Source of the DNA: Squalus acanthias
Lineage: Eukaryota
NCBI GenBank assembly: GCA_030390025.1
Contig: CM059431.1
Location: 117,120,001 to 117,184,000, forward strand
Reading direction: 5' to 3'
Length of the DNA: 64,000 nt
Position numbers and translations under genes: made by a program. This document shows, in pieces, positions 1 to 57,271 of this stretch. Each line of letters starts with the position of its first letter. Positions within the stretch are counted from its first letter, which is position 1. The notes beneath the pieces were generated by a model. The model worked only from the letters and a program-made list of their open reading frames with translations, did no database searches and was not told the DNA's origin.

Positions 1-918
1 CTTGATGACGTTCCTTGTGCCAGCATGGCTCTCATTATGTGAGTGATGGCCACAAGCGGTGGGGTTGTGGAGGGGGTCATCAGCCAGGTGTAGAGCAGAT
101 AGCCCTTGCCACCGAGCAGTCACCCTCGGGTTCGACATGGTGGCTGAAAGATTGCTGGTACTGGAGCAGCATGAACGCATCATGCTTGCTGTCATGATAG
201 TGGACATTCACCAGCATGATGTGCTTGGCATGGCCACACACCAACTGCACATTAAGTGGGTGGAACTCTTTACGGTTACACAACATCTCACCATTGAGAT
301 GCGGCACCTGCAAAGCCACGTGTGTGCAGTTGAATGTGCACTGCACCATGGGGAAGCCCGATATCCTGGCAAAGCCATTCCTGATTCTCTCTGTTTATAG
401 AGAAGACAATGAAGTCCCCTCTCCTAGCATACAGAGCCTCTGTGACCTCTAGGATGCAGCGATATACGGTGAACAGCAAAATGTTTGCTATGTCGCTCAT
501 TCCAGCCGGGAAGGATCTGCTGGCAAAAGAATTCAGGGCCACAATCACCTTGAGGGCCACAGGCAGCGCCCTGGTCACCCTGCTCTGAGGCTGCAGGTCT
601 GGTTCCAAGAGGTGGCAGAGTTCTCTGACCATCCACTTGGTGAAGCGGAGGCGCCGAACACATTGCTCCTGGCTTAGGTGTGGGTAGGAGAAGTGCTCCC
701 TGAAGACCCGAGGTGGGCAAGAAAATGGCACGTGTGCGTCAAATCAGCATTACACACTGACTGACGTCATGCCTACCCTGCATACTACTGGCTGTGCTCT
801 CGCTGTCACCAAGATGACGAACAGGGCGGGCCGCGTGGAAGTGGGCGGAAGCGAGGAGGACGGCATTTTTTTTTAAACGGCTAAAACTACCGGTGCTACA
901 AGGGTGAAATTCACAGCC
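1..918 (-). mobile_element. PIF/Harbinger transposon end with decayed HARBI1-like DDE transposase (runs off window start)
   Basis: ORFs 288..731 and 80..349 read RLRFTK..LPVALKV..CTHVAL..NRKEFHPLNVQLVC..HDAF and are frameshifted. The terminus GAAATTCACAGCC ends at 918. Region 730-775 matches 11371-11420 in reverse complement. Confidence 0.85.
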
Positions 919-5271: not shown

Positions 5272-8200
5272 TGTAAAGTTTCCAAAATTTGCAGATCCCC
5301 AAAAATCTAAGCAAAAGGGACTTTGGAACTACCTCAGAGTGATAAAAATGCATTTGGGCCTAACATAAGAAATTTAAGACCAAAACCAAGCTTTGGCATT
5401 TTAAAAGGACATATCTGAAATTCAAGCCCCAGCAAACATTAACATTTAGACAATAGGCCCTGGGAGAAGGCCGCCCCACCAAAACACAGGAACCAGTAAA
5501 ACCTATCACAGAACCCATTAAAGAGACGCATAAAGATAGGAGTGCTAGGCCCAGCAAGAAACCCAAAACATGAGGACAATGCAAACTCCGATTAAACAAC
5601 AGATCAACAGGACGCAAGCCATTTGACACTCAGTAAAATCATTACTGTTGACGAGGTCTTACAATGACCAGGATTTGATTTGGTTCTGACAAGGCCACTT
5701 CAATTTAGCATAATTGAAGGCCCATCAAGCAGTTACAACAGTTCAGTAAGAAGAGAGTTCAGGACAATTTAACACCAAGTTAAACCCATCAAAACTTAAC
5801 AAGCCCGCAAAACCAAGACAATGGAATGAACAGGCCTCAACTGAAACCTCAGAAACATGGCTGCAGGGTGACAATGCCTGGGAATTAAACATACCAGGTT
5901 ATTTAACGATCAGGAAGGACAGGCAGGAAGGAAGGGGAGGTGGGGTGGCTATGTTAATAAAGGAAGGAATCACTGTAATACAGAGTAATGATATTGGGTC
6001 AAAAAATCATGATAATGAAACAGTTTTAGTGGAGATAAGGAATAATAAGGGGGAAAAAACACTAGTGGGCGTAGTCTATAGGCCTCCGAACAGTTGCAAC
6101 TCTGTTGGACGGAGTATCAATCAGGAAATAGTTGAGGCATGTAATAAGGGAACATCTATAATTATGGGGGATTTTAACTATCATATTAATTGGACAAATC
6201 AAATGGGGCAGGGCTGCCTTGAGGATGAGTTCATTGAGTGTATTAGGGATGGGTTTCTTGAGCAGTATGTAACTGAACCGACCAGGGGGCAAGCAACCTT
6301 AGATCTGGTCCTGTGTAACGAGACAGGATTAATTAAAAATGTCCTAGTAAAGGATCCCCTTGGAATGAGTGACCATAACATGGTTGAATTCCATATTCAA
6401 TTAGAGGGTGAGAAGGTTGGATCTCAAACAAGCGTGCTAAGCTTGAATAAAGGAGACTATGAAGGTATGCGAGCGGAATTGAGTAGAGTGGATTGGGAAA
6501 ATAGATTAAAGGGTAAGACGACACATGATCAGTGGTGTACATTCAAGGAGTTATTTTACAACTTCCAAAAAATATATATTCCACTGAAAAGAAAAGGGTG
6601 TAAAAGAAAGGACAGTCATCCGTGGCTAAGTAAAGAAATTAAGGATAGTATTCGACTAAAAACAAGGGCATATAAGGTAGCGAAATCTAGTGGGAGGACA
6701 GAGGATTGGGAAAAATTTAAAAGGCAGCAAAAAATAACAAAAAGATTGATTAAGAAAGGGAAGATAGATTATGAAAGTAAATTAGCAAAAAATATAAAAA
6801 CAGATAGTAAGAGTTTTTATAGTTATATAAAAAGAAAAAGGGTGGCTAAAGTAAATGTTGGTCCCTTAGAGGATGAGACCGGGAAATTAATGGTGGGAAA
6901 TATGGAGATGGCAAAAACACTGAATGAATAATTTGTATCAGTCTTTACAGTAGAGGACACTAAGAATATCCCAACACTGGACAAACAGGGGGCTATAGGG
7001 GGAGAGGAGCTAAACACAATCAAAATCACTAAGGAAGTGGTACTCGGTAGAATAATGGGACTCAAGGCGGATAAATCACCTGGACCTGATGGCTTACATC
7101 CTAGAGTCTTGAAGGAAGTGGCGGTAGGGATTGTAGATGCATTGGTAATAATTTTTCAAAACTCCCTGGATTCCGCTAAGGTCCCGGCAGACTGGAAAAC
7201 TGCTAATGTAACACCCTTATTTAAAAAGGGCAGTAGACAGAAGGCTGGTAACTATAGACCGGTTAGCCTAACATCTGTGGTAGGTGAAATTTTGGAGTCC
7301 ATTATTAAGGAAACAGTAACAGGACATTTGGATAATCATAATTTAATAGGACAAAGTCAGCATGGTTTTACGAAGGGGAAGTCATGTTTGACAAATTTGC
7401 TGGAGTTCTTTGAGGAAGTAACATATAGAGTGGATAAAGGGGAACCAGTGGACGTAGTGTATTTAGACTTCCAAAAGGCATTTGACAAGGTGCCACACAA
7501 AAGATTATTGCTTAAGGTAAAAAATCACGGGATTGGGGGTAATATTCTGGCATGGATAGAGGATTGGCTATCTAACAGAAAGCAAAGAGTTGGGATAAAT
7601 GGTTCATTCTCAGACTGGCAATCAGTAACTAGTGGTGTTCCACAGGGGTCAGTGCTGGGTCCCCAACTCTTTACAATCTATATTAACGATTTGGAGGAAG
7701 GGACCAAGCGTAACATATCAAAATTTGCAGATGATACAAAGATGGGAGGGAAAGTAGTGAGTGAGGAGGACATAAAAAACCTGCAAGGGGACATAGACAG
7801 GCTAAGTAAGTGGGCAGAGATTTGGCAGATGGAATACAACACTGGAAAGTGTGAGGTGATGCACTTTGGCAGGAAAAATCCTAGAGCAATTTATTATCTT
7901 AATGGCAAGAAACTGGAAAGTACTGAAGTGCAAAGGGATCTGGGGGTCCTGGTGCACGAAACTCAAAAGGTTAGTATGCAGGTGCAGCAAGTGATTAAGA
8001 AGGCAAATGGAATGTTGGCTTTCATTGCTAGGGGGATAGAATATAAAAATAGGGAGGTATTGCTTCAGTTGTACAAGGTATTGGTGAGACCGCACCTGGA
8101 ATACTGCATACAGTTTTGGTGTCCTTACTTAAGGAAAGACATCCTTGCTCTCGAGGCAGTGCAAAAAAGGTTCACTCGGTTAATCCCGGGGATGAGGGGG

Positions 8201-9364
8201 TGGTCATATGAGGAGAGGTTGGGTAGATTGGGACTCTACTCATTGGAGTTCAGAAGAATGAGAGGCGATCTTATTGAAACATATAAGATTGTGAAGGGGT
8301 TGGATCGGGTGGATGCGGGGAGGATGTTCCCGATGACGGGTGAGACTAGAACTAGGGGACATAGTCTTAGAATAAGGGGCTGTTCTTTCAAAACTGAGAT
8401 GAGGAGGAACTACTTCACTCAGAGGGTGGTAGGTCCATGGAATATGCTGCCACAAAAAGCTGTAGAAGCTACATCATTAAATAAATTTAAAACAGAAATA
8501 GACAGTTTCCTAGAAGTAAAGGGCATTAAGGGTTACGGGGAGCGGGCAGGAATTTGGACATGAGTCTAGGTTCGGATCCGGTCATGGCCCTGTGGGTAGT
8601 GGAGCGGGCCCAGGGACCGTGTAGCCTGATTCTGCTCCTATTTCGTGTGTGCAATTCTGTTAGATGCAGGAGATGGTTCTGTGATAGATAGTAGATTGGC
8701 GGTTAGGATCAGATCAGCCATGATCTTATTGAATGGCGGAGCAGGCTCGATGGGCCGATTGGCCTACTCCTGCTCCTATTTCTTATGTTCTTATGTTCTT
8801 ATTAACACAAAAACATTTTAGTAAGGGGTTTTGGGCGCGAAAAGGACAAAGGGGCTAAACAAGTATAATTGGGGGCCTAAGCCCCCAAGACTCTCTCTCT
8901 CTCTGGACTCTCTGACAGCGCTCACACAGCTCTCTCTCGGCTCTGTTCCAGAAGCAGCACGTTCCAGCAAGACACTCGACGACCAGACCACCATCGCAAT
9001 CAACTTACCTGGCTGGATTTCGCACTGTTAAAACCTCTGTTTGGTGAGCATTATCCCTGATCTCCTGAAACCAAAACCTAGCTAGATAGTGGGATTTTTG
9101 GGAGGGATAAGGGTTTTTGTATATTGTCATTCTCCCTCGCCTGTACCGTGTGTTCCCCAACCTGTTTAAGTGTTAAGTGTGTTTTAAGTTTGTTACCTTT
9201 TTCTTTTAATAAAAGTCAAAATTCTTTCATTGGAACCTGTTGTCTACTGCATCTTTATTCACAACCCCTAAATAAGTCCAAGGTCTGAACCAGGGGCGTG
9301 GGAGCGATTCGAACCGCTCACTGAGTCAGGGGTAAGGCTGACCCCTACCACACCACCCCCTACA
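5272..9364 (+). mobile_element. Solo LTR (about 1.14 kb) interrupted by a CR1
   Basis: TGTA...TACA ends, 4-bp TSD CAAA, TATA-like GTATAA near 8863 and AATAAA near 9208. Confidence 0.8.
5850..8802 (+). mobile_element. 5'-truncated young CR1 LINE (ORF2 APE+RT with one premature stop at 6929-6931)
   Basis: ORFs 5945..6931 and 7037..8563 are nearly identical to 40493..43444. FADD motif and (TTCTTATG)n tail. Confidence 0.95.
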
Positions 9365-11701: not shown

Positions 11702-12832
11702 ATGGGGGCGCTACTTGCAGTCCCCCTCACGCTCGAGTGTGACAGGGAGATGGAGCGGAGGCAGCGAAGAAGAGGATAAGATGCTTGCAGAGGGAAGAGG
11801 AGAAGGGGCAGGAGGGCTCTCAGCAGGAGGCCTTACCCACCTAGGATCTTCAGGGAGCATTTCTCCAACTTACACCTTAGCCAGGAGCAGTGTATTAGGA
11901 GGCTCTGCTTCACCAAGGAGGTGGTCACAGAGCTCTGCCACATCCAGCCTCAGAGCAGGGTGATGACAGCTCTCCCAGTGGTTCTCAAGGACACCTTGGC
12001 AATCAATTTTTTCACCAACGGCTCCTTCCAGTCTGGAGCAGTCTCCCAGTTTGCCATCCATCGCTGCATTCAGGAGGTCAAAGAGGCTCTCTACTCCAGG
12101 AGAAGGGACTTCATTGTCTTCTCTCTGAACAGAGAGAAGCAGGACGAGCGCGCACGTGGTTTTGCCAGGATAGCAGGCTTCCCCATGGTGCAGGGTGCCA
12201 TCGAATGCACACACGTGGCTATGCGAGCACCGTATATCAATCCTGATATGTTCCATAACCTCAAAGGTTACCATTCACTTAATGTGCAGTTGTTGTGCGA
12301 CCATGATGGTGAAAGCCCGCTATCCTGGCAGTCATGATGCATTCATACTGCACCTGTCTGGTCTGCCAGCAATCTTCCAGCCACCATGTCAAAGCCGAGA
12401 GTGCTTGGAGACACGGTTTGCCACTCTGCACCTGGCTGATGACTCCACTCCGTAACCCCACCATTCGTGGCCAGTACTCGTGTAATGACAGGCATGCTGC
12501 CACGAGGAACATCATCGAGCAGATCATCAGGGTGCTAAAGCAACGGTTCCGCTGCCTTGACCGCTCGGAAGGAGTCCTCCAGTACACGCTGGAGTGGGTG
12601 TCACATTTCGTGGTGGTCTGCTACATGATCCACAACTTAGCCATCATGAATTGGCAGAACTAGCCACAATGGGTTCCGGGACCACCTCAGGAGGAGGAGG
12701 TGGAAGAGGAAGAAGTTGAGGAAGTGTTAGAAGAGGAAGAGGAGGAGATGAAGGAAGGGAGGAGGAGGCAGGTAGCACACCCTGTCCCTGAAGGGCTGTC
12801 CGTGAGCACCTCATCAGACTTTGGTTCCAATG
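11702..12832 (+). pseudogene. Harbinger DDE transposase (HARBI1-like), frameshifted
   Basis: FARIAGFPMVQGAIECTHV..KGYHSLNVQ, ARYPGSHDAFIL and HAATRNIIEQIIRVLKQRFRCLD, followed by an acidic tail and AATAAA. Confidence 0.9.
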
Positions 12833-32631: not shown

Positions 32632-32895
32632 GAGAAGAAGTTGCATTTACAAACTTTGGTGAAGACACAGAGAAAGATTCCCTGCTCTTCTAGTGCCATG
32701 AATCTTGCACGTCCACCTGAACAGGCAGGCAGGACATCGGTGTAATTACTTATCCGAAAGACGGCACCTCCGACAGTGCAGCACCCTTCAGTACAGCAAT
32801 GGAGTGTCAGCCTAGGTTTTGTGCTCAAGTGCCTGGAGTCGGACCTGAGCCCATGATCTCCTGGCTCAGAAGCAAAAATTCGGCAATTGAACCAA
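32632..32895 (-). mobile_element. Decayed Deu-domain (SacSINE1-like) SINE
   Basis: Reverse-complement similarity to 55810-56040. Confidence 0.75.
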
Positions 32896-35641: not shown

Positions 35642-37474
35642 TGTGTCCCAGTGGACTTGGATCCAGGTGAGGAAAAAGATGGCTGACTTGAAGAAAACTG
35701 CTAAGCTAAGGCTACTGAACAACTTTGAATGCTAAGTGCCTGCTCCTAGTATAGTTGACACAAAGTATTCCTCACAACTTGTAACTCATATTCTACCGCT
35801 GCATCCTAATCATTCATACAAGCTTATCCTCTACATGTAAAATATTGCCCACTGAAAGCATGGCCATGTTGCAGCCCAACATAAATATAAACAGCAACGT
35901 AGAACAGAAACTGCTGTTGGATCGATATCTTCGAGGCTGCATGTAAAAAATTCTTCTAGCTACACATTGCATATTCTATCTGTCTGTCTCTCTCCCTATT
36001 ATTTTTAATAGATAACACTGTAGGGCCTGGTACTCAGTCCTCCCACTGCTATGTCATGCGTCATCCAGTTAATTTTTTCTTCTGACATGAAGGTGAATTC
36101 GATTTTTAACAAAATCTGTTTCTTAACTCACTTTGTTTTAATTATTTGCCTTTATGTTTGCTGCCAACTTGAGCCTTTTTCCAGTGGTGGGACCTCCTCC
36201 AGTGACCCCGCTCAGCTGCTGGCATCTCTCAACATCTCCCTGAGGTGTTTCCCTATCTTTCCAGCCTTAGCTTCTGCACTGAACAATTCCTCACCCTTAG
36301 TGATTTTAATCTCTATCTCAATTCCCATTGCCTTTATTTCTCCAAAATCACTGCCCTCCTGTCCTCTCCAAGTCATTCCCTCCATAGAAACTCTCCCAAA
36401 CATATTAGCGGCCACGCCTCTAACATTGCCATCTCTCATGGTATCTTTCCTCCCATGGTCTCAATCACTGAAAAGACCATCTCTGACCACTTCTTTGTAA
36501 CCCTTACCATCCACGTCCCCTACTCTTCTTTAACCCCATTCCCCCCCACCTCCCCCCCCCCACCATGTTACTTATTACTGCACACACTCCCAGCTATCTA
36601 GTCTTTGGTTCTCCATTTACTACGATACAACTGCAGCTATTGATTTGCTCAACTATTCTCTCATCGCCACTTTTGATGCAAAACCTTCACTGTCTCCCAT
36701 TCAAGGGCTGCAAACTTGAGGATATCTGATGTGCAATTGGCTTAGCCATCCATTACCAGATCTGACTCAATCAGATTAAACTCAACTGGACCTTGCTCTC
36801 CTCTGCCAAAGTATCCACTACTCTTAGAAAGTAAAGGTAATCCCAGGCTTCTTCTCTCGACTACCAACTGCCTCCTAAAACCTTCTCCCCTGTCCTTTTC
36901 TCCCTCATTTCTGATAAGTATGAGGAACTCATGGATTTCTTAATCACCATGAAAGAGGACCTCCATGCAGCTGCCTCTGCTGCTTCTCCCGTCCCTTTTC
37001 CCACCTGAACCAGAACCCCTCTTTCTCTCTCTGTAGTTTCTCTCTATCTCTTCCCATGCTCGCTCCAGTCTCATCCATGAGACCTACTTCCTGTTCCTTT
37101 GACCCCATTTCCACTAAACTCCTGACCACTTCCAGGTTTCCACGTCAACTGACATTGTAAATAGTTCCCTCGCCCCAGGAACTGCCTACCTGTCTTTCAA
37201 AACTACTATCATTAGCCCCCTCCTCAAAAAAACTTATCCTTGACCCCATTAACTACAGCCCATCACCAACTTCCTTTTACTCTCTAAATGCATTATTTCT
37301 CCTCATCCTCCTTGACCGTTGTGCAGCCTTGAACAGCCAATCACATTACCTTGCTCCAATGCCTCTTCCCTATTATTCAGCTTGGTCGGGCTGCCCTCAC
37401 TTGATTCTATTCTTATCTATTTGATGTGAGAAGTCGCACAACACCAGGTTATAGTCCAACAGCTTTATTTGAAA

Positions 37475-37511
37475 TCACAAGCTTTCGGAGCGCTGCTCCT
37501 TCGTCAGGTGA
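37475..37511 (-). ncRNA. Minimal type I hammerhead ribozyme motif
   Basis: UCAC-CUGACGA-A-GGAGC(AGC)GCUCC-GAAA-GCUU-GUGA, giving the core, stem II and a 4-bp stem I. Confidence 0.75.
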
Positions 37512-37516
37512 AGACT

Positions 37517-37553
37517 TGACCTGACGAAGGAGCAATGCTCCGAAAGCTTGTGA
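37517..37553 (+). ncRNA. Minimal hammerhead ribozyme motif (stem I mismatch)
   Basis: UGAC-CUGACGA-A-GGAGC(AAU)GCUCC-GAAA-GCUU-GUGA. Confidence 0.65.
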
Positions 37554-38274
37554 TTTCAAATAAAGCTGTTGGACTATAACCTGGTGTTGTGCGACTTTTC
37601 ACATTTGTCCACCCCAGTCCAACAGCGACATCTCCACATCATATCTATTTGATGATAGCCAGAGCTTTTCTACCAATGACTTCTTTACCCACCCCCACAC
37701 CATCATCTCAGGAGTCCCCCAAGAATCCATCCTTGCTAAATGCTGCTCCTTGGCAACATCATTGGTAGACATGAGGTCAGCTTTCACATGTATGATGTGA
37801 CCTCTTCACCACTTTTGATTTTTCTCCTCCCGCTTCGAACTGCCTATATGCCATTAGACTGCTTGTATGGTATCAAGTCTTGAATGAGCTGTAATTTCCT
37901 CCAGTTAAGCACTTAGATCACAGCCATCATCTTTGGACCTTGCCACAAATGTTGTGTGTGTCTGTGTCCTATCCTGCACCAAACCCTGCTCGTCCATTAC
38001 CATTGTCCTTGCAAACCTACATTGGCTCCTGTTACCCCATGCCTCAAATTGAAAATGTCCATCCTTGTGTTTAAATCCCTCCATGGCTTCATCCTCTCAT
38101 TATCTCTGTAAACTTCTCCTGTCCAATAACCCCTATCCCCTCCCACCCTCTCCCGAACTTTCCACTCTCTAAATATGGACTCTTGTGAATCCCCTCACCC
38201 TTCATTCCACATTTGGCAGCCATGCCTTCAGCTGCTTAGCCCCTGTACTTTGGAATTCCCTCCCTAAACCCATA

Positions 38275-39166: not shown

Positions 39167-39497
39167 TTCCACTTTTCCACCTCCCTTTCCTCCTTTATTA
39201 TCCTTCTTAAAGCCTACCTCTTTGGACCAAGCTTTGGTCACACATCCTAATCTTTCTTTCTTTGGCTTGGTGTCAGTTTTTCTTTATGTCTCTGAGGTGT
39301 CTTGGATGTTTTTCAAGAGTAAGGGAGTAGGCGTAGGAGTAGGAGTAGTATCATACCAATGACACCTGGTGAGTATTTCTCTTTTTTTTGATACAAAACT
39401 TCAATTTTATTGTTTCTCGGGTATCTGTGGTGTAGCAGAGACTGCTGGCATAAATTAACTGAAGGGTAAATAATACATTTTTAATTAATTACATAGA

Positions 39498-40454
39498 ATG
39501 GGAGAGCAGGTGATGTGTTACTGCTGCAATATGTGGGAGCTGGTGGACACCATTGATGTTCACGGTGAACACATTTGCAGTAAGTGTTGGCTGCTCGAGG
39601 AACTCCGGCTCCGTGTTGATGAGCTGGAGTCCGAGCTTCAAACACTGCGACACATCAGGGAGGGGGAGAGTTACCTGGACTCCGTGTTTCAGGAGGTAGT
39701 CACACCAATTAGAGTAACTAATTCAGAAGTAGCCCGTGGTCAGGGACAGGAAGGTGTGACTACGAGTGAGGCAGGTACAGGGATCCAGGAGGTAGTGTTG
39801 GAGGAGCCGCAGCCCTTGCTCTTGTCCAACAGGTTCGAGGCTCTTACTCCCTGTGTGGATAGGAGCGGGGACTGCAGGGAGGATGAGCAACCTGGCCACA
39901 GCACCGTGGTAAGGGGGGCCATTCAAGTGGGGGGAGTAAAAAGAAATGTTGTAGTGGTAGGGGATAGTATCATTAGGGGGATAGATAGGGTTCTTTGCAG
40001 CCAAGAGCGAGAGTCCCGAAGGCTGTGTTGCCTGCCCGGTGCCAGGGTTAAGGACATCTCCTCTGGGCTGGAGAGAAACTTGGAGTGGGAGGGGGAGGAT
40101 CCAGTTGTCGTGGTCCATGTTGGTACCAATGACATAGATAGGACAAGGAAAGAGGTTCTGCTGAGGGAGTTTGAGCAGCTAGGGGCCAAATTAAAAAGCA
40201 GAACCTCGAGGGTAATAATCTCTGGATTACTACCTGAGCCACGAGCAAATTTGGCTAGGGTAAATAAAATCAGGGAGTTGAATGCGTGGCTCAAAGACTG
40301 GTGTGGGAAAAATGGGTTTTGCTTCTTGGGACACTGGCACCAGTACTGGGGCAGGAGAGAGCTGTTCCGTTGGGACGGACTTCACTTGGCCAGTGCTGGG
40401 ACTAGTGTCCTGGCGAATCGAATAACTAGGGCTGTGGAGAGGGCTTTAAACTAA
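39498..40454 (+). CDS. CR1 ORF1p: zinc finger/leucine zipper plus SGNH esterase
   Basis: CxxC..CxxC, a heptad LEELRLRVDELESEL, and the motifs VVGDSII, HVGTND and DGLHL. Confidence 0.93.
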   Translation: MGEQVMCYCCNMWELVDTIDVHGEHICSKCWLLEELRLRVDELESELQTLRHIREGESYLDSVFQEVVTPIRVTNSEVARGQGQEGVTTSEAGTGIQEVVLEEPQPLLLSNRFEALTPCVDRSGDCREDEQPGHSTVVRGAIQVGGVKRNVVVVGDSIIRGIDRVLCSQERESRRLCCLPGARVKDISSGLERNLEWEGEDPVVVVHVGTNDIDRTRKEVLLREFEQLGAKLKSRTSRVIISGLLPEPRANLARVNKIRELNAWLKDWCGKNGFCFLGHWHQYWGRRELFRWDGLHLASAGTSVLANRITRAVERALN

Positions 40455-40492
40455 TTAGTGGGGGGGAGGTTTCAAGAGAGCAAAAAATAAAA

Positions 40493-43444
40493 ATGACAAC
40501 AGAGAGGGTCATAGACATAGGTAGCAGTAGGGGAATCACAAATCAGAGCGTGGCAGGAAGGGACAGAGTGTGTGGAGTAAAAGGTAAACTGGTAAAAAGT
40601 GAAAAAGCAGGAACTAAGTGCCACAAAGCATATTTGAAAGTTCTCTATCTGAATGCACGTAGCATTCGTAACAAAATAGACGAGTTAATGGCACAAATAA
40701 CTACATATGGTTATGATATTGTGGCCATTACAGAAACATGGCTGCAGGGTGACAATGCCTGGGAATTAAACATACCAGGTTATTTAACGATCAGGAAGGA
40801 CAGGCAGGAAGGAAGGGGAGGTGGGGTGGCTATGTTAATAAAGGAAGGAATCACTGTAATACAGAGTAATGATATTGGGTCAAAAAATCATGATAATGAA
40901 ACAGTTTGGGTGGAGATAAGGAATAATAAGGGGAAAAAAACATTAGTGGGCGTAGTCTATAGGCCTCCGAACAGTTGCAACTCTATTGGACGGAGTATCA
41001 ATCAGGAAATAGTTGAGGCATGTAATAAGGGAACATCTATAATTATGGGGGATTTTAACTATCATATTAATTGGACAAATCAAATGGGGCAGGGCTGCCT
41101 TGAGGATGAGTTCATTGAGTGTATTAGGGATGGGTTTCTTGAGCAGTATGTAACTGAACCGACCAGGGGGCAAGCAACCTTAGATCTGGTCCTGTGTAAC
41201 GAGACAGGATTAATTAAAAATGTCCTAGTAAAGGATCCCCTTGGAATGAGTGACCATAACATGGTTGAATTCCATATTCAATTAGAGGGTGAGAAGGTTG
41301 GATCTCAAACAAGCGTGCTAAGCTTGAATAAAGGAGACTATGAAGGTATGCGAGCGGAATTGAGTAGAGTGGATTGGGAAAATAGATTAAAGGGTAAGAC
41401 GACACATGATCAGTGGTGTACATTCAAGGAGTTATTTTACAACTTCCAAAAAATATATATTCCACTGAAAAGAAAAGGGTGTAAAAGAAAGGACAGTCAT
41501 CCGTGGCTAAGTAAAGAAATTAAGGATAGTATTCGACTAAAAACAAGGGCATATAAGGTAGCGAAATCTAGTGGGAGGACAGAGGATTGGGAAAACTTTA
41601 AAAGGCAGCAAAAAATAACAAAAAGATTGATTAAGAAAGGGAAGATAGATTATGAAAGTAAATTAGCAAAAAATATAAAAACAGATAGTAAGAGTTTTTA
41701 TAGTTATATAAAAAGAAAAAGGGTGGCTAAAGTAAATGTTGGTCCCTTAGAGGATGAGACCGGGAAATTAATGGTGGGAAATATGGAGATGGCAAAAACA
41801 CTGAATGAATATTTTGTATCAGTCTTTACAGTAGAGGACACTAAGAATATCCCAACACTGGACAAACAGGGGGCTATAGGGGGAGAGGAGCTAAACACGA
41901 TCAAAATCACTAAGGAAGTGGTACTCGGTAAAATAATGGGACTCAAGGCGGATAAATCACCTGGACCTGATGGCTTACATCCTAGAGTCTTGAAGGAAGT
42001 GGCGGTAGGGATTGTAGATGCATTGGTAATAATTTTTCAAAACTCCCTGGATTCCGCTAAGGTCCCGGCAGACTGGAAAACTGCTAATGTAACACCCTTA
42101 TTTAAAAAGGGCAGTAGACAGAAGGCTGGTAACTATAGACCGGTTAGCCTAACATCTGTGGTAGGTAAAATTTTGGAGTCCATTATTAAGGAAACAGTAA
42201 CAGGACATTTGGATAATCATAATTTAATAGGACAAAGTCAGCATGGTTTTACGAAGGGGAAGTCATGTTTGACAAATTTGCTGGAGTTCTTTGAGGAAGT
42301 AACATATAGAGTGGATAAAGGGGAACCAGTGGACGTAGTGTATTTAGACTTCCAAAAGGCATTTGACAAGGTGCCACACAAAAGATTATTGCTTAAGGTA
42401 AAAAATCACGGGATTGGGGGTAATATTCTGGCATGGATAGAGGATTGGCTATCTAACAGAAAGCAAAGAGTTGGGATAAATGGTTCATTCTCAGACTGGC
42501 AATCAGTAACTAGTGGTGTTCCACAGGGGTCAGTGCTGGGTCCCCAACTCTTCACAATCTATATTAACGATTTGGAGGAAGGGACCAAGTGTAACATATC
42601 AAAATTTGCAGATGATACAAAGATGGGAGGGAAAGTAGTGAGTGAGGAGGACATAAAAAACCTGCAAGGGGACATAGACAGGCTAAGTAAGTGGGCAGAG
42701 ATTTGGCAGATGGAATACAACACTGGAAAGTGTGAGGTGATGCACTTTGGCAGGAAAAATCCTAGAGCAATTTATTATCTTAATGGCAAGAAACTGGAGA
42801 GTACTGAAGTGCAAAGGGATCTGGGGGTCCTGGTGCACGAAACTCAAAAGGTTAGTATGCAGGTGCAGCAAGTGATTAAGAAGGCAAATGGAATGTTGGC
42901 TTTCATTGCTAGGGGGATAGAATATAAAAATAGGGAGGTATTGCTTCAGTTGTACAAGGTATTGGTGAGACCGCACCTGGAATACTGCATACAGTTTTGG
43001 TGTCCTTACTTAAGGAAAGACATCCTTGCTCTCGAGGCAGTGCAAAAAAGGTTCACTCGGTTAATCCCGGGGATGAGGGGGTGGTCATATGAGGAGAGGT
43101 TGGGTAGATTGGGACTCTACTCATTGGAGTTCAGAAGAATGAGAGGCGATCTTATTGAAACATATAAGATTGTGAAGGGGTTGGATCGGGTGGATGCGGG
43201 GAGGATGTTCCCGATGACGGGTGAGACGAGAACTAGGGGACATAGTCTTAGAATAAGGGGCTGCTCTTTCAAAACTGAGATGAGGAGGAACTACTTCACT
43301 CAGAGGGTGGTAGGTCCATGGAATATGCTGCCACAAAAAGCTGTAGAAGCTACAACATTAATTAAATTTAAAACAGAAATAGACAGTTTCCTAGAAGTAA
43401 AGGGCATTAAGGGTTACGGGGAGCGGGCAGGAATTTGGACATGA
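40493..43444 (+). CDS. CR1 ORF2p: APE endonuclease plus reverse transcriptase (983 aa)
   Basis: LNARS, ITETW, YRPP, GDFN, SDH; then YRPVSL, LDFQKAFDKV, GVPQGSVLGP and FADD. Confidence 0.97.
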   Translation: MTTERVIDIGSSRGITNQSVAGRDRVCGVKGKLVKSEKAGTKCHKAYLKVLYLNARSIRNKIDELMAQITTYGYDIVAITETWLQGDNAWELNIPGYLTIRKDRQEGRGGGVAMLIKEGITVIQSNDIGSKNHDNETVWVEIRNNKGKKTLVGVVYRPPNSCNSIGRSINQEIVEACNKGTSIIMGDFNYHINWTNQMGQGCLEDEFIECIRDGFLEQYVTEPTRGQATLDLVLCNETGLIKNVLVKDPLGMSDHNMVEFHIQLEGEKVGSQTSVLSLNKGDYEGMRAELSRVDWENRLKGKTTHDQWCTFKELFYNFQKIYIPLKRKGCKRKDSHPWLSKEIKDSIRLKTRAYKVAKSSGRTEDWENFKRQQKITKRLIKKGKIDYESKLAKNIKTDSKSFYSYIKRKRVAKVNVGPLEDETGKLMVGNMEMAKTLNEYFVSVFTVEDTKNIPTLDKQGAIGGEELNTIKITKEVVLGKIMGLKADKSPGPDGLHPRVLKEVAVGIVDALVIIFQNSLDSAKVPADWKTANVTPLFKKGSRQKAGNYRPVSLTSVVGKILESIIKETVTGHLDNHNLIGQSQHGFTKGKSCLTNLLEFFEEVTYRVDKGEPVDVVYLDFQKAFDKVPHKRLLLKVKNHGIGGNILAWIEDWLSNRKQRVGINGSFSDWQSVTSGVPQGSVLGPQLFTIYINDLEEGTKCNISKFADDTKMGGKVVSEEDIKNLQGDIDRLSKWAEIWQMEYNTGKCEVMHFGRKNPRAIYYLNGKKLESTEVQRDLGVLVHETQKVSMQVQQVIKKANGMLAFIARGIEYKNREVLLQLYKVLVRPHLEYCIQFWCPYLRKDILALEAVQKRFTRLIPGMRGWSYEERLGRLGLYSLEFRRMRGDLIETYKIVKGLDRVDAGRMFPMTGETRTRGHSLRIRGCSFKTEMRRNYFTQRVVGPWNMLPQKAVEATTLIKFKTEIDSFLEVKGIKGYGERAGIWT

Positions 43445-44041
43445 GTCTAGGTTCGGATCGGTCATGGCCCTGTGGGTAGTGGAGCGGGCCCAGGGACTGT
43501 GTAGCCTGATTCTGCTCCTATTTCGTGTGTGCAATTCTGTTAGATGCAGGAGATGGTTCTGTGATAGATAGTAGATTGGCGATTAGGATCAGATCAGCCA
43601 TGATCTTATTGAATGGCGGAGCAGGCTCGAGGGGCCGATTGGCCTACTCCTGCTCCTATTTCTTATGTTCTTATGTTCTTATGACACCGTATCTTCATCA
43701 GTTTTGTTGTCTATTCTCAGCCTCATCCCCAATCCACACTAAGTTCTCTTTGCCAGTACCTGTCACTACAGTGGGAACAAGTAAATTATTACATCATGCT
43801 ACCTCCACTCTCTCCCACCTCAAATGAAAGAAGAAAACAAATCAAAAACCGGACAAGCAGAAGAGAACGAAAACAAAGTGGTAGAGAGGGGGAGACCAAC
43901 TTAAAGAGAGAGGAAAAAAACAGAAGACAGCAGAGATAAAGTTGCAACCAAAACAACTAGACTAAGGCAACAAATGTAGGTCATGTAGACTTTCCAGGAG
44001 TAATACTATAGGAGGCCCACTAATAATATATTAAAATCATT

Positions 44042-52300: not shown

Positions 52301-53772
52301 CAGCATAGCGTGTTCACAGTACGAGGACATTTTTTTCAAACTGCTGCTTGATATTTTAGATCCTCAGCCCCAAGTGAGATCAGCTCCTAATTCTCAAAGA
52401 TTACGGCAAATTTTGCACGGGTCTGCTCCCAGATTAACTAACACAAGATTAATTTTGCTGACCCGAAATTATAGAGCGCTGACATCCATATCTAATTCTC
52501 TCATCTGCTTGCCCGTCGAGGAAGCCATGATTTTCGCTGCTGTTTTCCACCGACATTTTGTTCCCCTATCTAGTAGTAGAAACACCTTGTGTTGTTGAGT
52601 TCTGCTTCAGCGAGTACTCTCCAGATATGTGGAACTTTCCATCCAGTCCACTCTGCCTTACCACCTCTCCTCCTGTTGCTTTCAAAACCTTTCTCTTCCA
52701 CCGTGGCTTTAATTCCCCACACCAGCTTCTCACTTTCCCTCCGCTTTCCCCATGCAGGGTGTCCAGCAATATCCCTTTCCTCCTTAGCCCAAAGGGGCTC
52801 TGAGACATCTCCGTGCAAATGAGGAGCACTGTGTCAAGGCATGGCTGTTCTAATTTGATTGGGTGTGTGGTACATTTCAGCAGCCATTCAGGAAAATACA
52901 GCTGCCATCCACCAGATTAAATGGCTGAATTATCGCCGCAAACTACATTTGCTGCCTGCCACTGAACATCATCCAGCCGTGATATTTCTAAACTGTTACC
53001 GACACTACTAACAAGTAGGAAAGAGTAATTGAGACAGCTGGTGACTTGTCTCATCAATCAACACCTTGTGTGGGTAAATGTTGTTAAGTGTAGTCTACCT
53101 GGCTGCTCCATTCATCTTGCTAATCACCATTTTGTTCTTATCACTAACATAAAAAAAACTCCTTCCAGAACAAAGACTGCGGCACATTTAAAAAATGTTT
53201 TTACATCTTCAGCCTGAGTTTAAATTATTTACAAAATTGTAATTTGCTACACCACTTCAATACAAATGACTATATTGTGGCCATTTTCAGCAACGACACC
53301 AACTATTGCAGTCAAAGTGGTGGGAATTTAGCTGTGGGATGGAATACTTTTAATATAAAGTACTTCTTCAGCTGAATAAATGGTGGGAGGGTGAAATAAT
53401 CATTGTTAAAACTTGTATCTGAATGGAGATATTCCAGTTTTCTAAAATCTTATTCCCCCCACTGACATCTTGTGATATCAAACAAGCTTTTTGGAAAAAC
53501 TAAACCCAAATTTTACTCTTCTCTATCATTACCACAAGACACGGGCTGAGGCTGTTGATGATGATCATGGGAATGCTTTGTGTTTTGGAAGGGGGTAGAA
53601 GACACTTAATACAACCTTATTATATTGTATATTATTACTGATGTGCTTTCATGCACTGCTCAGGGGACCAAAAATCATACATTTGGAATCTGATGGTCAG
53701 GTCTTTCTCCTCCCTGTCCTATCCACCCCCATCTCCAATACTCATTGTGTCAGCTGTGGCTCAGTGGGTAGC

Positions 53773-55801
53773 GCTCACTCGGTGGGAGGGGCTAGGGGTG
53801 AGCAGGTGCTGCTCGGTGCTATTTACTGCAGGGTGTTGGAGTGAGTTTGTAAAAAGTTAGTGGTGTTTTTTTTCAGGTTTTAGGGCCTTTTTGGTCCTTA
53901 AACAACTGCCAGATGGCTGCTGAGGGACTCGGAGTGCCAGGCCACTGAGGACAATGTTCCCAGGATGAATTTAATCAGGGGAGAAAATGTTGGGAGAAGG
54001 GAGAAAAAAAGACCCAAAGATTTGATCCCGGATCACAGGAGGGTTGGAAAAGGAAACACGGTGGTGGTTCAGTGCGAGGATAAGGAGATACGAGCTTGGG
54101 ATATTATCCAGGCGGTACATGAGGACTGCGGCGAGGGAAGCTGCTTTTCCTGCCTGCCAAAGCCGAATGTTGGGTTCGAGGTGATGGTCAGTGGCTGAGA
54201 GGAGGTGGAAAGACTTTACTGAGTTTGAAGGTTGGAGATAAGTTCTTGGAGGTATCTCTGCTATATTCTGAAGAGGTGGTGGTCTCATTCTTAAACCTGC
54301 CGGTTTATATTGAGGATGATATGCTAATAAAAAAGTTGGAGTCATGGGACATTAAAATTTGTTCGACAATAAAGAGGACACAATATTCAGGAACGCGGGT
54401 AGCAGATGGAACGCTTTATGTAAAGGTGGTTCCCAGAGGGGTGAAGTCATTGTCGTATAGCATGAAATTTGAGACAATGGAAGGAGTGCAGTACTTCCGG
54501 GTACTGCATGATAACCAGGTGAAGGTTTGTTGTTATTGTCTTGGACACTACCATCTTGTAAGAAGCTGTCCAGAATTGTACTGTTATAACTGTGGCATGT
54601 CTGGACACATCGCTCGGAGCTGCATGGTGGAGAGCTGTGGGGTGTGTCACAAAGGCCCTACCCACTGTGAGTGTGAGGCAGAAGGAAGCCCCTTGAGTGA
54701 CGAGGGGATGGGAGAAGGAACAGGAGGTGTGAGTAGAGTGGCTGGAGGAGCGGAGCAGGCGGAGGACACAGCTAGTGAATGAAAAGAGCACAGGAAGAGG
54801 CAGAAAATTGTGGAGCAGAGCAGAGAACAGGGTGGAGATGGTGGAAAACTCACCAAGTACTGTGGAAACGGTCAAAGACCGTAGCGGGCAGTACGGGTCG
54901 AGGGCAGAGTCGAGCCATAATAAGGCTCGGTTCTCCCTAAAGAATCTGGTGTCCACGTGGGAAGAGGAGGCGGGAGTGGGGTGCAGGGTAAGTGTAAGTA
55001 TCCAAAGAAAGATGGGGAGTTGGACATCTCAGGGAGCAGGAGGGGGCAAGACAAGTAGAGGGTGCAAGAGGCAGGAGCCTTAAACGGCTAGCAGGACGGG
55101 AGCGGGGAGACAAAGATGCCAGAAGGGAGCAAGATAGGTGCAGATGCGCCATTGTCCCAGAGAGAGAAAAAACGGGGAGCAAGGGTCAGCGGTGGAGATC
55201 AGGCCAAAGGGAGTGGCACTGTTGGAGAAACCGTGATAGCAGGAAGACTCTCTAAGGGAGATTATGTATCTGACGGGAGCAGGGACGGGAGGTTACAGAA
55301 GAGCTCGAGAGTGAGGAGTCAGAGAGGGACAGAGACATGGAAGTAGGGGATGGATTGGCATCGTGTGAAAAGGGAAAGGTTAGTGAGGGGCAGAAGGAGG
55401 GAGAAGGGGCAGCTCCTTGGCCCAAACCTAATGTAAGGAAAGGCTGAAACTGCAGGGAGTGTTCAAACAGGAGGTGAAAAAGAGCCGGAGGCTGCAGGAG
55501 AAAGCAACAGCTGTCCGAAAAGTTGGGAAGGAGCATGAGAGGAGGGAAGGACCGGAGATTAAATGATGGGGGATTATCAGGCACACTTCCCTTATTCGGA
55601 ACCATGATTACGGGTCAATTTTTAAAGTACAATAGATTAGTATATGTTATGGGAGACAAATTAAACTTCATGTCTTGATGTTAGTATGTGGTGGAGGAAT
55701 GGCTGTGCAGAGCGGCGGAATGGATTTGTATGATACAATGGAATGATCACAATGTTGTAAATGTGTTTAATGTTCAATAAATAATATATATAAAAAAAAG
55801 A
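53773..55801 (+). mobile_element. Tx1/L1-clade non-LTR element with ORF1 only, polyadenylated
   Basis: TSD GGGTAGC, AATAAA plus A-tail at 55776-55801, and no EN or RT coding. Confidence 0.8.
53913..55565 (+). pseudogene. Gag-like ORF1 with CCHC zinc knuckles (Tx1/ZCCHC3-like), frameshifted
   Basis: VSFLNLPVYIEDD..DGTLYVKV..FRVLHDNQVKVCCYCLGHYHLVRSCP..CYNCGMSGHIARSC. Outer limits are approximate. Confidence 0.8.
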
Positions 55802-57271
55802 GGGTAGCACGCTCGCCTCTGAATCAGAAGATTGTGTGTTCAAGTCCCACTCCAGGGACTTGAGCACATAAATCTAGGCTGACACTCCAGTGCAGTACTG
55901 AGGGAGTGCTGCACTGTCAGAGGTGCCGTCTTTCGGATGAGACGTTAAACTGAGGCCCCGTCTGCTCTCTCAGGTGAACGTAAAAGATCCTATGGCACTA
56001 TTTTGAAGAAGAGCAGGGCAGTTATCCCCAGTGTCCTGGCCAATATTTATCCCTCAATCAACATAACAAACACAGATTATCTGATCATTATCACATTGCT
56101 CTTTGTGGGAGCTTGCTGTGAGCAGATTGGCTGCTGCGTTTCCCACATTACAACAGTGACTACACTCCAAAAGTACTTAATTGGCTGTAAAGCGCTTTGA
56201 GACATCTGGTGGTCGTGAAAGGCGCTAAATAAATGCAAGTCTTTCTTTATTATCTATGCTGAGGCAGGAATGTTCCCCTTCTGACTGTTTGGACTGCCTG
56301 GAACCATATTTAAACTTCATGAACGTTACTGGAAAGAAATAAATTGCCATTCATAACTGTTACCTTTGTTCATGTTACCCAAAGACAATCAATTGGAAAA
56401 TCTGCTCCTGAATGTCAGTCCGGCATCAGTTGTAGTCCAGAGATTCTTATGGTCAGTCTAGGGCTGGAGCTGTAGCGCTTTGCAAAGTATTTGATCATCT
56501 ATGCCTTATAAACCTTCAATCAGGTATTTACTCCATTACTTTTTAAAAGGCATCAATCAACAGTGTTAAGTGGAATAAAATCTTCAAAGTTATCTACAAT
56601 TCTGGGGGGGGAAATGCTAATCACTTGTCTTGTTTGAGGCTTGCCAATTTTATATTCACGTCCTCAAATCCAGCGATAACATTTTAAGTAAAATCTGCTT
56701 AGTGATATTATCCACGCTTTCAAAAAATTAAAGAGCCAAATCCTTTCTCTTCTCAATTCTTCAAGTAGTTTGGGTTCAATTCTCTCAGCTTTTCTTTTAT
56801 CATGAATTAGCAATTTTAAGTCTTATCTACTGTGCCAGTCTTCTGTGAACCCTTTCCGGCACATCAATGAAGATTAACTCCACATGCTTTCACACAATAT
56901 TTTAAAGGTGGCTTTATGACTGAATTGTTAAGTGTTAGAATAAACTACTTTTATTTGTAATTCATTTCTTAAGATTGATCTTCAACGACTTCCATGAAGA
57001 AGGATTCAGATAAGTCATAGCTCTCGATTGGATTGTGAGAGATCTGAAGGGTCTGTGTCTTTAATAAATGACAAAATATTTCAATTCCCCATTGAAGGGC
57101 AAGGAGGAGTTTGAGATTTTGTGATGCAACCTGTGATGCATAGCAAGAGTTCTGTAGGTTGAGTAGTGTGGCTAGAGAGGCTCAAATATTGAAATGAGGC
57201 CCATCAGTTAAAAGCAGCTGGGCCTCGCTCCATTCCCCTCTTCTGAGTGTGCCACCCTTTTCAGACTCCCC

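What the first reader, a model, noticed from the sequence alone, without database searches (positions are those of the whole stretch)
53766..55808. ORF1-only Tx1/L1 element inserted precisely in a tRNA-SINE A-box
Seen: a 2.0-kb polyadenylated unit with a 7-bp TSD, a zinc-knuckle ORF1 and no EN or RT. A short frame FLKYNRLVYVMGDKLNFMS* (about 55620-55677) may be the residual ORF2 C-terminus. It splits TGGCTCAGT-GGGTAGC. Known: HAL1 elements are ORF1-only L1 derivatives, and several Tx1-clade families are specific for multicopy RNA genes or repeats. Inference: a non-autonomous family whose helper endonuclease may target tRNA or SINE heads.
Basis: partly seen in the sequence, partly recalled or inferred. 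Interest (0 to 1): 0.7.

Follow-up and report, generated by a model that had tools for sequence, protein, structure and literature searches.

The report
Half-size LINE family splitting SINE heads
This is a decayed copy of an abundant 2-kb jumping gene that has lost its own copying enzymes but kept its RNA-packaging gene, and it probably lands at one fixed spot in the tRNA-like start of another repeat, a new mix of two known habits.

Summary
Confirmed: a 2,029-bp polyadenylated element (53773-55801) with a 7-bp TSD splits one tRNA-derived SINE head. It is not a one-off deletion: contigs from three organisms cover all 23 element bins, about 2,700- and 6,700-fold above the unique flank where that was covered, flat across the ORF1-to-tail junction. 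Family indels link the ORF1 pieces into one frame of about 554 codons. The short tail frame ranks first in blind window-wide scans with a Tx1 ORF2 C-terminus profile. Targeting is likely but not counted: each of the three runs has at least one other-allele contig with the same SINE-head junction, and an autonomous relative sits 1-2 nt from the equivalent site in tRNA-Ser. No helper was found. It works like HAL1 but comes from Tx1. The scan noted SINE-targeting Tx1-like LINEs on other DNA, but I saw no note on this ORF1-only family. Verdict: new variant of a known kind.

The parts
53746..53765 (+). 5' end of the tRNA-derived SINE, with most of the A box (A box TGGCTCAGTGG 53757-53767)
   Evidence: Matches the loose-end consensus of empty SINE heads (156 and 145 contigs, table 7); A-to-B spacing is 45 nt at the empty site
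53766..53772 (+). left target-site duplication GGGTAGC
53773..53912 (+). 5' UTR of the element, complete (depth at 53780 is about the family median)
   Evidence: table 3: depth 119,719 / 13,213 / 341 at 53780 against medians of 82,819 / 12,863 / 446
53913..55566 (+). Tx1-type ORF1 (RRM-like part, CCHC knuckles, acidic linker, basic C-terminus); broken in this copy, one frame of about 554 codons in the family
   Evidence: zf-CCHC; 37-46% identity to teleost CCHC proteins; 801 relatives at E<=0.001; family indels connect the pieces. RRM label recalled
55563..55609 (+). ORF1 stop overlapped by an ATG (ATGA), and the spacer that holds the ORF2 deletion junction; exact breakpoint not placed
   Evidence: context; junction bin depth 69,652 / 10,628 / 257; an ORF2 N-terminus profile found nothing here
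55610..55678 (+). residual last ~22 codons of ORF2 with its stop
   Evidence: Best of 2,619 window peptides by HMM (E=0.11) and best of 1,589 by stop-anchored matrix; 2 of 5,000 shuffles reach its score against the L010 C-terminus
55679..55801 (+). 3' UTR, AATAAA and A-rich tail
55802..55808 (+). right target-site duplication GGGTAGC
55809..56250 (+). rest of the SINE: B box (55838-55847), body and tail; SacSINE1/Deu-SINE likeness is recalled, not tested, and the 3' end is approximate
   Evidence: a second copy at 32680-32873 (-) is 78% identical; contigs that skip about 2,036 letters join the two halves (table 5)

Best explanation
A decayed copy of an abundant, internally deleted (bipartite) Tx1-clade LINE family that kept its 5' UTR, a full ORF1 and the last ~22 codons plus 3' UTR of ORF2. 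Shown: the structure, the shared deletion, high copy number in three organisms, mostly complete 5' ends, and an ORF1 frame that family variants make continuous. Inferred mechanism: a Pol II transcript is polyadenylated, makes its own ORF1p, and borrows ORF2p (APE endonuclease and RT) from an autonomous Tx1 partner. That endonuclease prefers the D-arm/A-box sequence of tRNA-derived heads. It nicks the bottom strand inside the A box, primes on the poly(A), and cuts the top strand 7 nt further on, giving the 7-bp TSD and separating the A box from the B box. The very numerous SINE heads act as a harmless landing field.
For:: all 23 element bins are covered in X1, X8 and X13 (medians 82,819, 12,863, 446; unique flank 12.3 and 4.74, not covered in X13; ratios about 6,700 and 2,700; the tool warns that summed contig depth is not a copy number). 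The junction bin is 69,652 / 10,628 / 257, and contigs are laid up to 45/32/31 letters on both sides of 55612. Nine of the 12 indel rows shown carry the frame from the ATG at 53913 to the stop at 55564, and near-fixed family letters fall on two of the three internal stops. The ORF2 remnant ranks first in two blind scans. 5' junction: contigs with the family letter at 53780 (not this copy's letter) reach 34, 34 and 35 letters from their ends, back to the SINE start at about 53746; X13 record 9 spans 53746-53888 with 15 differences and 3 gaps. Relatives: 7 of 11 metagenome loci show a 5S rDNA flank in the printed ends (Rfam confirms 2). One (L010) starts right after positions 1-26 of tRNA-Ser, in the same sense and 1-2 nt from the equivalent site, and has the best C-terminal match to the remnant among 7 loci.
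Against: No flank count was possible: only 18 of 846 loose-end rows and 24 of 18,714 pieces were shown, and no other copy's 3' junction was seen. No autonomous partner turned up; the best ORF1 relatives are about 54% identical or less. The remnant's blind HMM E-value is only 0.11, a first 130-residue profile missed it, and a direct protein search found nothing. The ORF1 trees put the window and L010 on one side of a split from five 5S loci (SH 96 FastTree; SH-aLRT 87 IQ-TREE), but on long branches and not as sisters; by plain identity the ORF1 core is closer to the other loci (39-46%) than to L010 (36%). The frame link at 54780-54813 rests on a minority row (164 of 634 depth in X13, 63 of 17,034 in X1, 0 in X8). 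The stop at 54196 is not covered by any row shown.
Confidence: 0.66

Rival explanations
1. The ORF1-only family is real but inserts with little or no site preference. This copy and the few junction contigs hit SINE heads because these SINEs are very abundant, or because targeting is weak.
For: Flanks were not counted. Related SINEs reach more than 200,000 copies in elephant shark (PMC5499810, results read). The ORF1 tree does not make the tRNA-inserted L010 a sister.
Against: The same nucleotide junction appears with a different allele in three organisms. No loose-end row at 53773 is among the 18 best-supported shown, while empty SINEs gave rows of 156 and 145 contigs. 8 of 11 related loci sit in multicopy RNA genes.
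Confidence: 0.2
2. One insertion into a SINE happened once. The whole SINE-plus-insert unit, or an element carrying the SINE's first ~27 nt, was then amplified by the SINE's partner LINE or by read-through, so the shared junction is inherited and not re-made.
For: It explains why junction contigs start at the SINE 5' boundary. The SINE tail looks intact in the window.
Against: Depth is flat to the 5' end, not 3'-biased, in X1 and X8. AATAAA and poly(A) lie before the SINE remainder. If only the head were carried, this copy's in-register 3' flank and TSD would still need a targeted insertion unless it is the founder.
Confidence: 0.09
3. Single-copy post-insertion deletion of an ordinary autonomous Tx1 element.
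For: In X13 depth drops about threefold after 55277, so one organism may hold ORF1 relatives with other 3' parts.
Against: Junction and tail bins have family-level depth in X1 and X8, and contigs bridge 55567-55657 in X1.
Confidence: 0.05

Closest known systems
HAL1 (half-L1) and the other ORF1-present bipartite non-autonomous LINEs, HeT-A (Jockey) and Ag-Sponge (CR1), as listed in Kojima 2018 (PMC5786205, passages read); HAL1 also in PMC5753468 and PMC8535693 (passages)
   Same: Internally deleted LINE that keeps the 5' end, ORF1 and the 3' tail, is multicopy, and must borrow ORF2p. It mostly keeps its 5' end, as said of rat HAL1 in PMC8535693.
   Different: Its ORF1 is the zinc-knuckle Tx1 type, and the passage lists only L1, Jockey and CR1 sources. 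It keeps ~22 ORF2 codons and probably has a target site. The HAL1 primary paper (Bao and Jurka 2010) was not held.
Target-specific Tx1-clade LINEs: Tx1L (Tx1D), Keno (U2), Kibi/Koshi (microsatellites), Tx1-Mar (Mariner-N4) in PMC4494074 (passages and section 15); Mutsu (5S rRNA) and Dewa (tRNA-Leu spacer) in PMC3706591 (passages)
   Same: Same ORF1 family as 5S-inserted full-length elements; poly(A) tail; short TSD; landing in a multicopy RNA-derived or mobile sequence.
   Different: No EN or RT. The target is the D-arm/A-box of a tRNA-derived SINE head, not 5S, U2, a tRNA spacer or a DNA transposon; none of the passages read names such a Tx1 target.
SINEU with Tx1-Mar (crocodilians, PMC4494074)
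   Same: A non-autonomous passenger that shows the target preference of its Tx1 helper.
   Different: SINEU is short, non-coding and snRNA-headed; this passenger is a 2-kb ORF1-coding derivative of the LINE itself.
Dada DNA transposons (PMC3706591, PMC8869645, passages)
   Same: Insert in the A box of tRNA genes.
   Different: DDE DNA transposons with TSDs at tRNA positions 8-13; here a poly(A) retroelement with a TSD at about positions 17-25.

Membership tests
Tx1 clade (autonomous element) | ORF1 with CCHC zinc knuckles, related to ORF1s of Tx1-type elements | tested here: met
   relatives lie in full-length ORF1+ORF2 elements
Tx1 clade (autonomous element) | ORF2 with APE endonuclease and RT | tested here: not met
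   No hit inside the element with an ORF2 profile; only the C-terminal remnant
Tx1 clade (autonomous element) | Placement in the Tx1 clade by RT phylogeny | not testable with these tools
   No RT in the element and no helper found; assignment rests on ORF1 kinship with 5S-inserted elements and on the ORF2 tail
Tx1 clade (autonomous element) | Poly(A) tail and short TSD | tested here: met
ORF1-present bipartite non-autonomous LINE | 5' part with ORF1 joined to the 3' end of the parent LINE, ORF2 deleted | tested here: met
ORF1-present bipartite non-autonomous LINE | Amplified as a family after the deletion | tested here: met
   Family-level depth across the junction in 3 of 3 contig runs
ORF1-present bipartite non-autonomous LINE | ORF1 kept under purifying selection | tested here: inconclusive
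   Family variants give a continuous frame, but no dN/dS was computed, one link is weak, and one stop is not covered by shown rows
HAL1 | Derived from the L1 clade, with an L1-type ORF1 | tested here: not met
   Pfam finds zf-CCHC only; relatives are Tx1-type elements
Mutsu | Insertion in 5S rRNA genes | tested here: not met
   Flank is a tRNA-derived head; no 5S match in the window
Target-specific Tx1 family (criterion in PMC4494074) | More than 20% of flanks share one sequence type | tested here: inconclusive
   At least one further junction contig in each of 3 runs, but no count; no genome held
SacSINE1 / Deu-SINE (the target) | tRNA-related head with A and B boxes | tested here: met
SacSINE1 / Deu-SINE (the target) | Deu domain and L2-type tail | not tested

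The most novel reading that the evidence does not exclude
Sharks hold a very successful ORF1-only Tx1 family, thousands of copies shared across species, that lands almost only at one nucleotide of tRNA-derived SINE heads. It descends from a tRNA-D-arm-targeting Tx1 lineage (like L010) that moved onto SINE heads, and it keeps ORF1 and an in-frame fused ORF2 start/end mini-frame under selection. Each insertion separates a SINE's A box from its B box, so one parasite would be disabling another at scale.
Probability: 0.4. Interest if true: 0.72.

Novelty: new variant of a known kind. Interest (0 to 1): 0.55.

Why it matters
ORF1-only LINEs are reported from three clades in the review passage I read, and target-specific Tx1 elements are known, but I found no description of the two combined or of a Tx1 target in a tRNA-SINE A box (searches; Repbase and subscription papers could not be searched). 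Thousands of 5'-complete copies would give a large natural data set for the target rule of a Tx1 endonuclease, for whether making ORF1p in cis helps a passenger capture ORF2p, and for whether such insertions curb SINE activity. An APE endonuclease that reads a tRNA D-arm sequence is also of interest for site-specific integration work.

Tried and rejected
No other copy of the element lies in the window. No whole genome is held, so copies and flanks could not be counted. No RNA holder was listed, which says nothing on expression. X21 (raw reads, organism G) gave only 10 reads and was not used. The 20 holder rows (8 studies, shares 0.10-0.33) were laid for 3 runs only; the others are not counted as evidence. 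A direct protein search with the remnant found nothing at E<=10. A 130-residue C-terminal profile aligned badly and missed the remnant; the 36-column profile was built afterwards from ORF2 columns alone, using 94 of 120 rows (26 dropped for more than 6 gaps). An ORF2 N-terminus profile found nothing at the junction. Against L001, L002, L003 and L008 C-termini the remnant scored no better than shuffles; L007 and L011 were marginal (221 and 172 of 5,000). Viral contigs gave no ORF1, ORF2 or junction relative. L012 and L013 from genome contigs gave no clear target. Rfam found nothing at the SINE. Sequence look-ups in earlier findings were empty. PMC13343379 was seen as abstract and outline only and covers CR1-group elements, so it was not used. 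Rejected: Pol III transcription of the element from the upstream A box (B box 2 kb away, a run of 8 or more T near 53866-53874). Rejected: an orthologous single locus as the source of the depth (flank depth 5-12 against thousands on the element).

Full report
Observation. The element runs from 53773 to 55801 on the + strand, between two copies of GGGTAGC (53766-53772, 55802-55808). This is the only direct repeat of 6 or more letters between the 5' region and the poly(A) end. AATAAA and an A-rich tail precede the right copy. With the element removed, the flanks form one tRNA-like head: the A and B boxes are 45 nt apart, as in tRNA, and ARAGORN calls a tRNA at relaxed scores only. Public contigs of empty SINEs show the same head (156 and 145 contigs) and joints that skip about 2,036 letters. 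The TSD begins inside the A box and the element lies just after it. The window is rich in CR1-type LINEs. That the host is a shark rests on the recalled SINE likeness and on earlier notes, not on a tool result.

ORF1. Pfam finds a zinc knuckle. The core is 37-46% identical to teleost CCHC proteins and has 801 relatives at E<=0.001, none of the 150 listed above about 54%. In this copy ORF1 is in pieces, with three internal stops. A profile of 120 related ORF2s hits the window's CR1 elements but nothing inside this element.

It is a family. Twenty runs from six organisms hold 0.10-0.33 of its words, none half. I laid three contig runs and one raw run. X8 matches the unique left flank with 0 differences in 323 letters, X1 with 25 in 335, and X13 does not cover it. 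All 23 bins inside the element are covered in the three contig runs. Median depths are 82,819, 12,863 and 446, against 12.3 and 4.74 on the flank. The tool warns that these sums are no copy number, so I read them only as a thousandfold order. The bin with the ORF1-to-tail junction has depth 69,652, 10,628 and 257, and contigs bridge it, so the ORF2 deletion is shared. Depth 8 letters into the element is about the family median, so most copies have complete 5' ends. Nine of the 12 indel rows shown (6 more hidden) carry the frame from the ATG at 53913 to the stop at 55564, about 554 codons, and near-fixed family letters fall on two of the three internal stops. The link at 54780-54813 rests on a minority row, and the stop at 54196 is not covered by the rows shown. 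In X13 depth falls about threefold after 55277, which I cannot explain. The raw run gave 10 reads.

ORF2 remnant. Eleven metagenome loci encode ORF1 relatives, most as full ORF1+ORF2 elements. Of 7 ORF2 C-termini tested, L010 matched the remnant without gaps over 24 residues (2 of 5,000 shuffles reach the score); four did no better than chance and two were marginal. A profile of the last 36 well-filled columns of 94 of 120 related ORF2s ranked the remnant first of 2,619 window peptides (E=0.11). A stop-anchored matrix ranked it first of 1,589 (8.4; mean -28.5, sd 8.4; runner-up 0.75). An earlier, longer profile missed it and a direct database search found nothing. Given its position just before the 3' UTR, I put the remnant reading at about 85%. 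An ATG overlaps the ORF1 stop. In copies with the one-letter insertion seen at 55567 (234 of 302 depth in X13, 3,335 of 9,793 in X8, 1,594 of 75,863 in X1) it would run in frame into the remnant as a 38-codon mini-frame. This may be ORF2's start fused to its end, but an N-terminus profile did not support that.

Target. At 53780 nearly all depth carries a letter other than this copy's. Such contigs are laid up to 34, 34 and 35 letters from their ends, so at least one per run reaches the SINE start at about 53746. X13 record 9 shows this directly (53746-53888, 15 differences, 3 gaps). Because X8's flank is identical to the window's and the allele differs, these are probably other loci. No loose-end row at the element start is among the 18 of 846 shown; this is weak. 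No other copy's 3' junction was seen. Among relatives, 7 of 11 loci show a 5S rDNA flank in the printed ends (Rfam confirms L002 and L003), as for Mutsu (name from PMC3706591; membership inferred). Three loci were undetermined. L010 begins right after a 26-letter stretch that is positions 1-26 of a tRNA-Ser elsewhere, in the same sense and 1-2 nt from the equivalent window site. ORF1 trees place the window and L010 apart from five 5S loci (SH 96; SH-aLRT 87), but on long branches and not as sisters. Plain identity of the core favours the other loci, while the N-terminal piece matches L010 best (E=0.019). I put targeting at about 70%.

Mechanism. Shown: bipartite structure, shared deletion, amplification, TSD, poly(A). 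Inferred from established LINE biology: trans-mobilisation by a Tx1 ORF2p through target-primed reverse transcription, with the site set by the helper's endonuclease (PMC4494074 states that target choice is mainly set by the endonuclease). Kojima 2018 (PMC5786205, passages) suggests that the ORF1p of such elements multimerises with the helper's proteins; that is untested here. The helper was not found.

Comparison. It works like HAL1 but is not one, since its ORF1 is Tx1-type. It is not Mutsu, since the target differs. PMC5786205 lists ORF1-present bipartite LINEs from L1, Jockey and CR1 only. PMC4494074 and PMC3706591 list Tx1 targets without a tRNA-SINE A box. I read passages or sections of these papers, not whole texts. 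Paper searches found no description of this family. Repbase entries, Kojima and Fujiwara 2004 and Bao and Jurka 2010 could not be read and may hold similar cases, and the SacSINE1 supplement was not held. Earlier scan notes report SINE-targeting Tx1-like LINEs in other genomes and a Penelope-targeting Tx1 in this one; these are unchecked leads.

Verdict. A real, high-copy, ORF1-only Tx1-derived family with probable targeting of tRNA-SINE heads: a new variant of a known kind, interest 0.55.

Noticed in passing
window 5850-8802 and 40731-43682: Two CR1-type LINE copies 99.3% identical over 2,953 letters; the second has an open 321-aa ORF1 (39489-40454) overlapping an open 1,004-aa ORF2 (40430-43444), so it is a very young element.
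   Followed up: no
window 55563-55678: An ATG overlaps the ORF1 stop; in copies with a one-letter insertion at 55567 it is in frame with the ORF2 remnant (38 codons).
   Followed up: partly
window 55277 onward, run X13: Depth falls about threefold and a loose end appears in this organism only; it may be a subfamily with another 3' part or the helper's lineage.
   Followed up: no
window 53773-53778 versus 55809-55814: The element's first letters resemble the target sequence just downstream of the cut; a contig at depth 93.6 in X1 goes back from 53813 to 53763, suggesting a variant with a repeated 5' end (table 5c).
   Followed up: no
L010 1-56: A full-length Tx1-type element placed right after position 26 of tRNA-Ser; a tRNA-internal Tx1 target that I did not find in the passages read.
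   Followed up: partly
window 32680-32873 (-): Second, headless fragment of the same SINE, 78% identical.
   Followed up: partly
window 37418-37610: Long inverted repeat giving sub-threshold Rfam miRNA matches; probably a small DNA transposon.
   Followed up: no
window 1-721 and 11780-12519: Two related fragments (71% identical) whose frames resemble Harbinger-type transposase (recalled, not tested).
   Followed up: no
L012 and L013: Tx1-type LINE contigs inside bacterial MAG records, most likely animal DNA contamination.
   Followed up: partly
L007 1-492 and L011 1761-2983: Head-to-tail neighbours of related elements, suggesting repeated insertion at one site.
   Followed up: no
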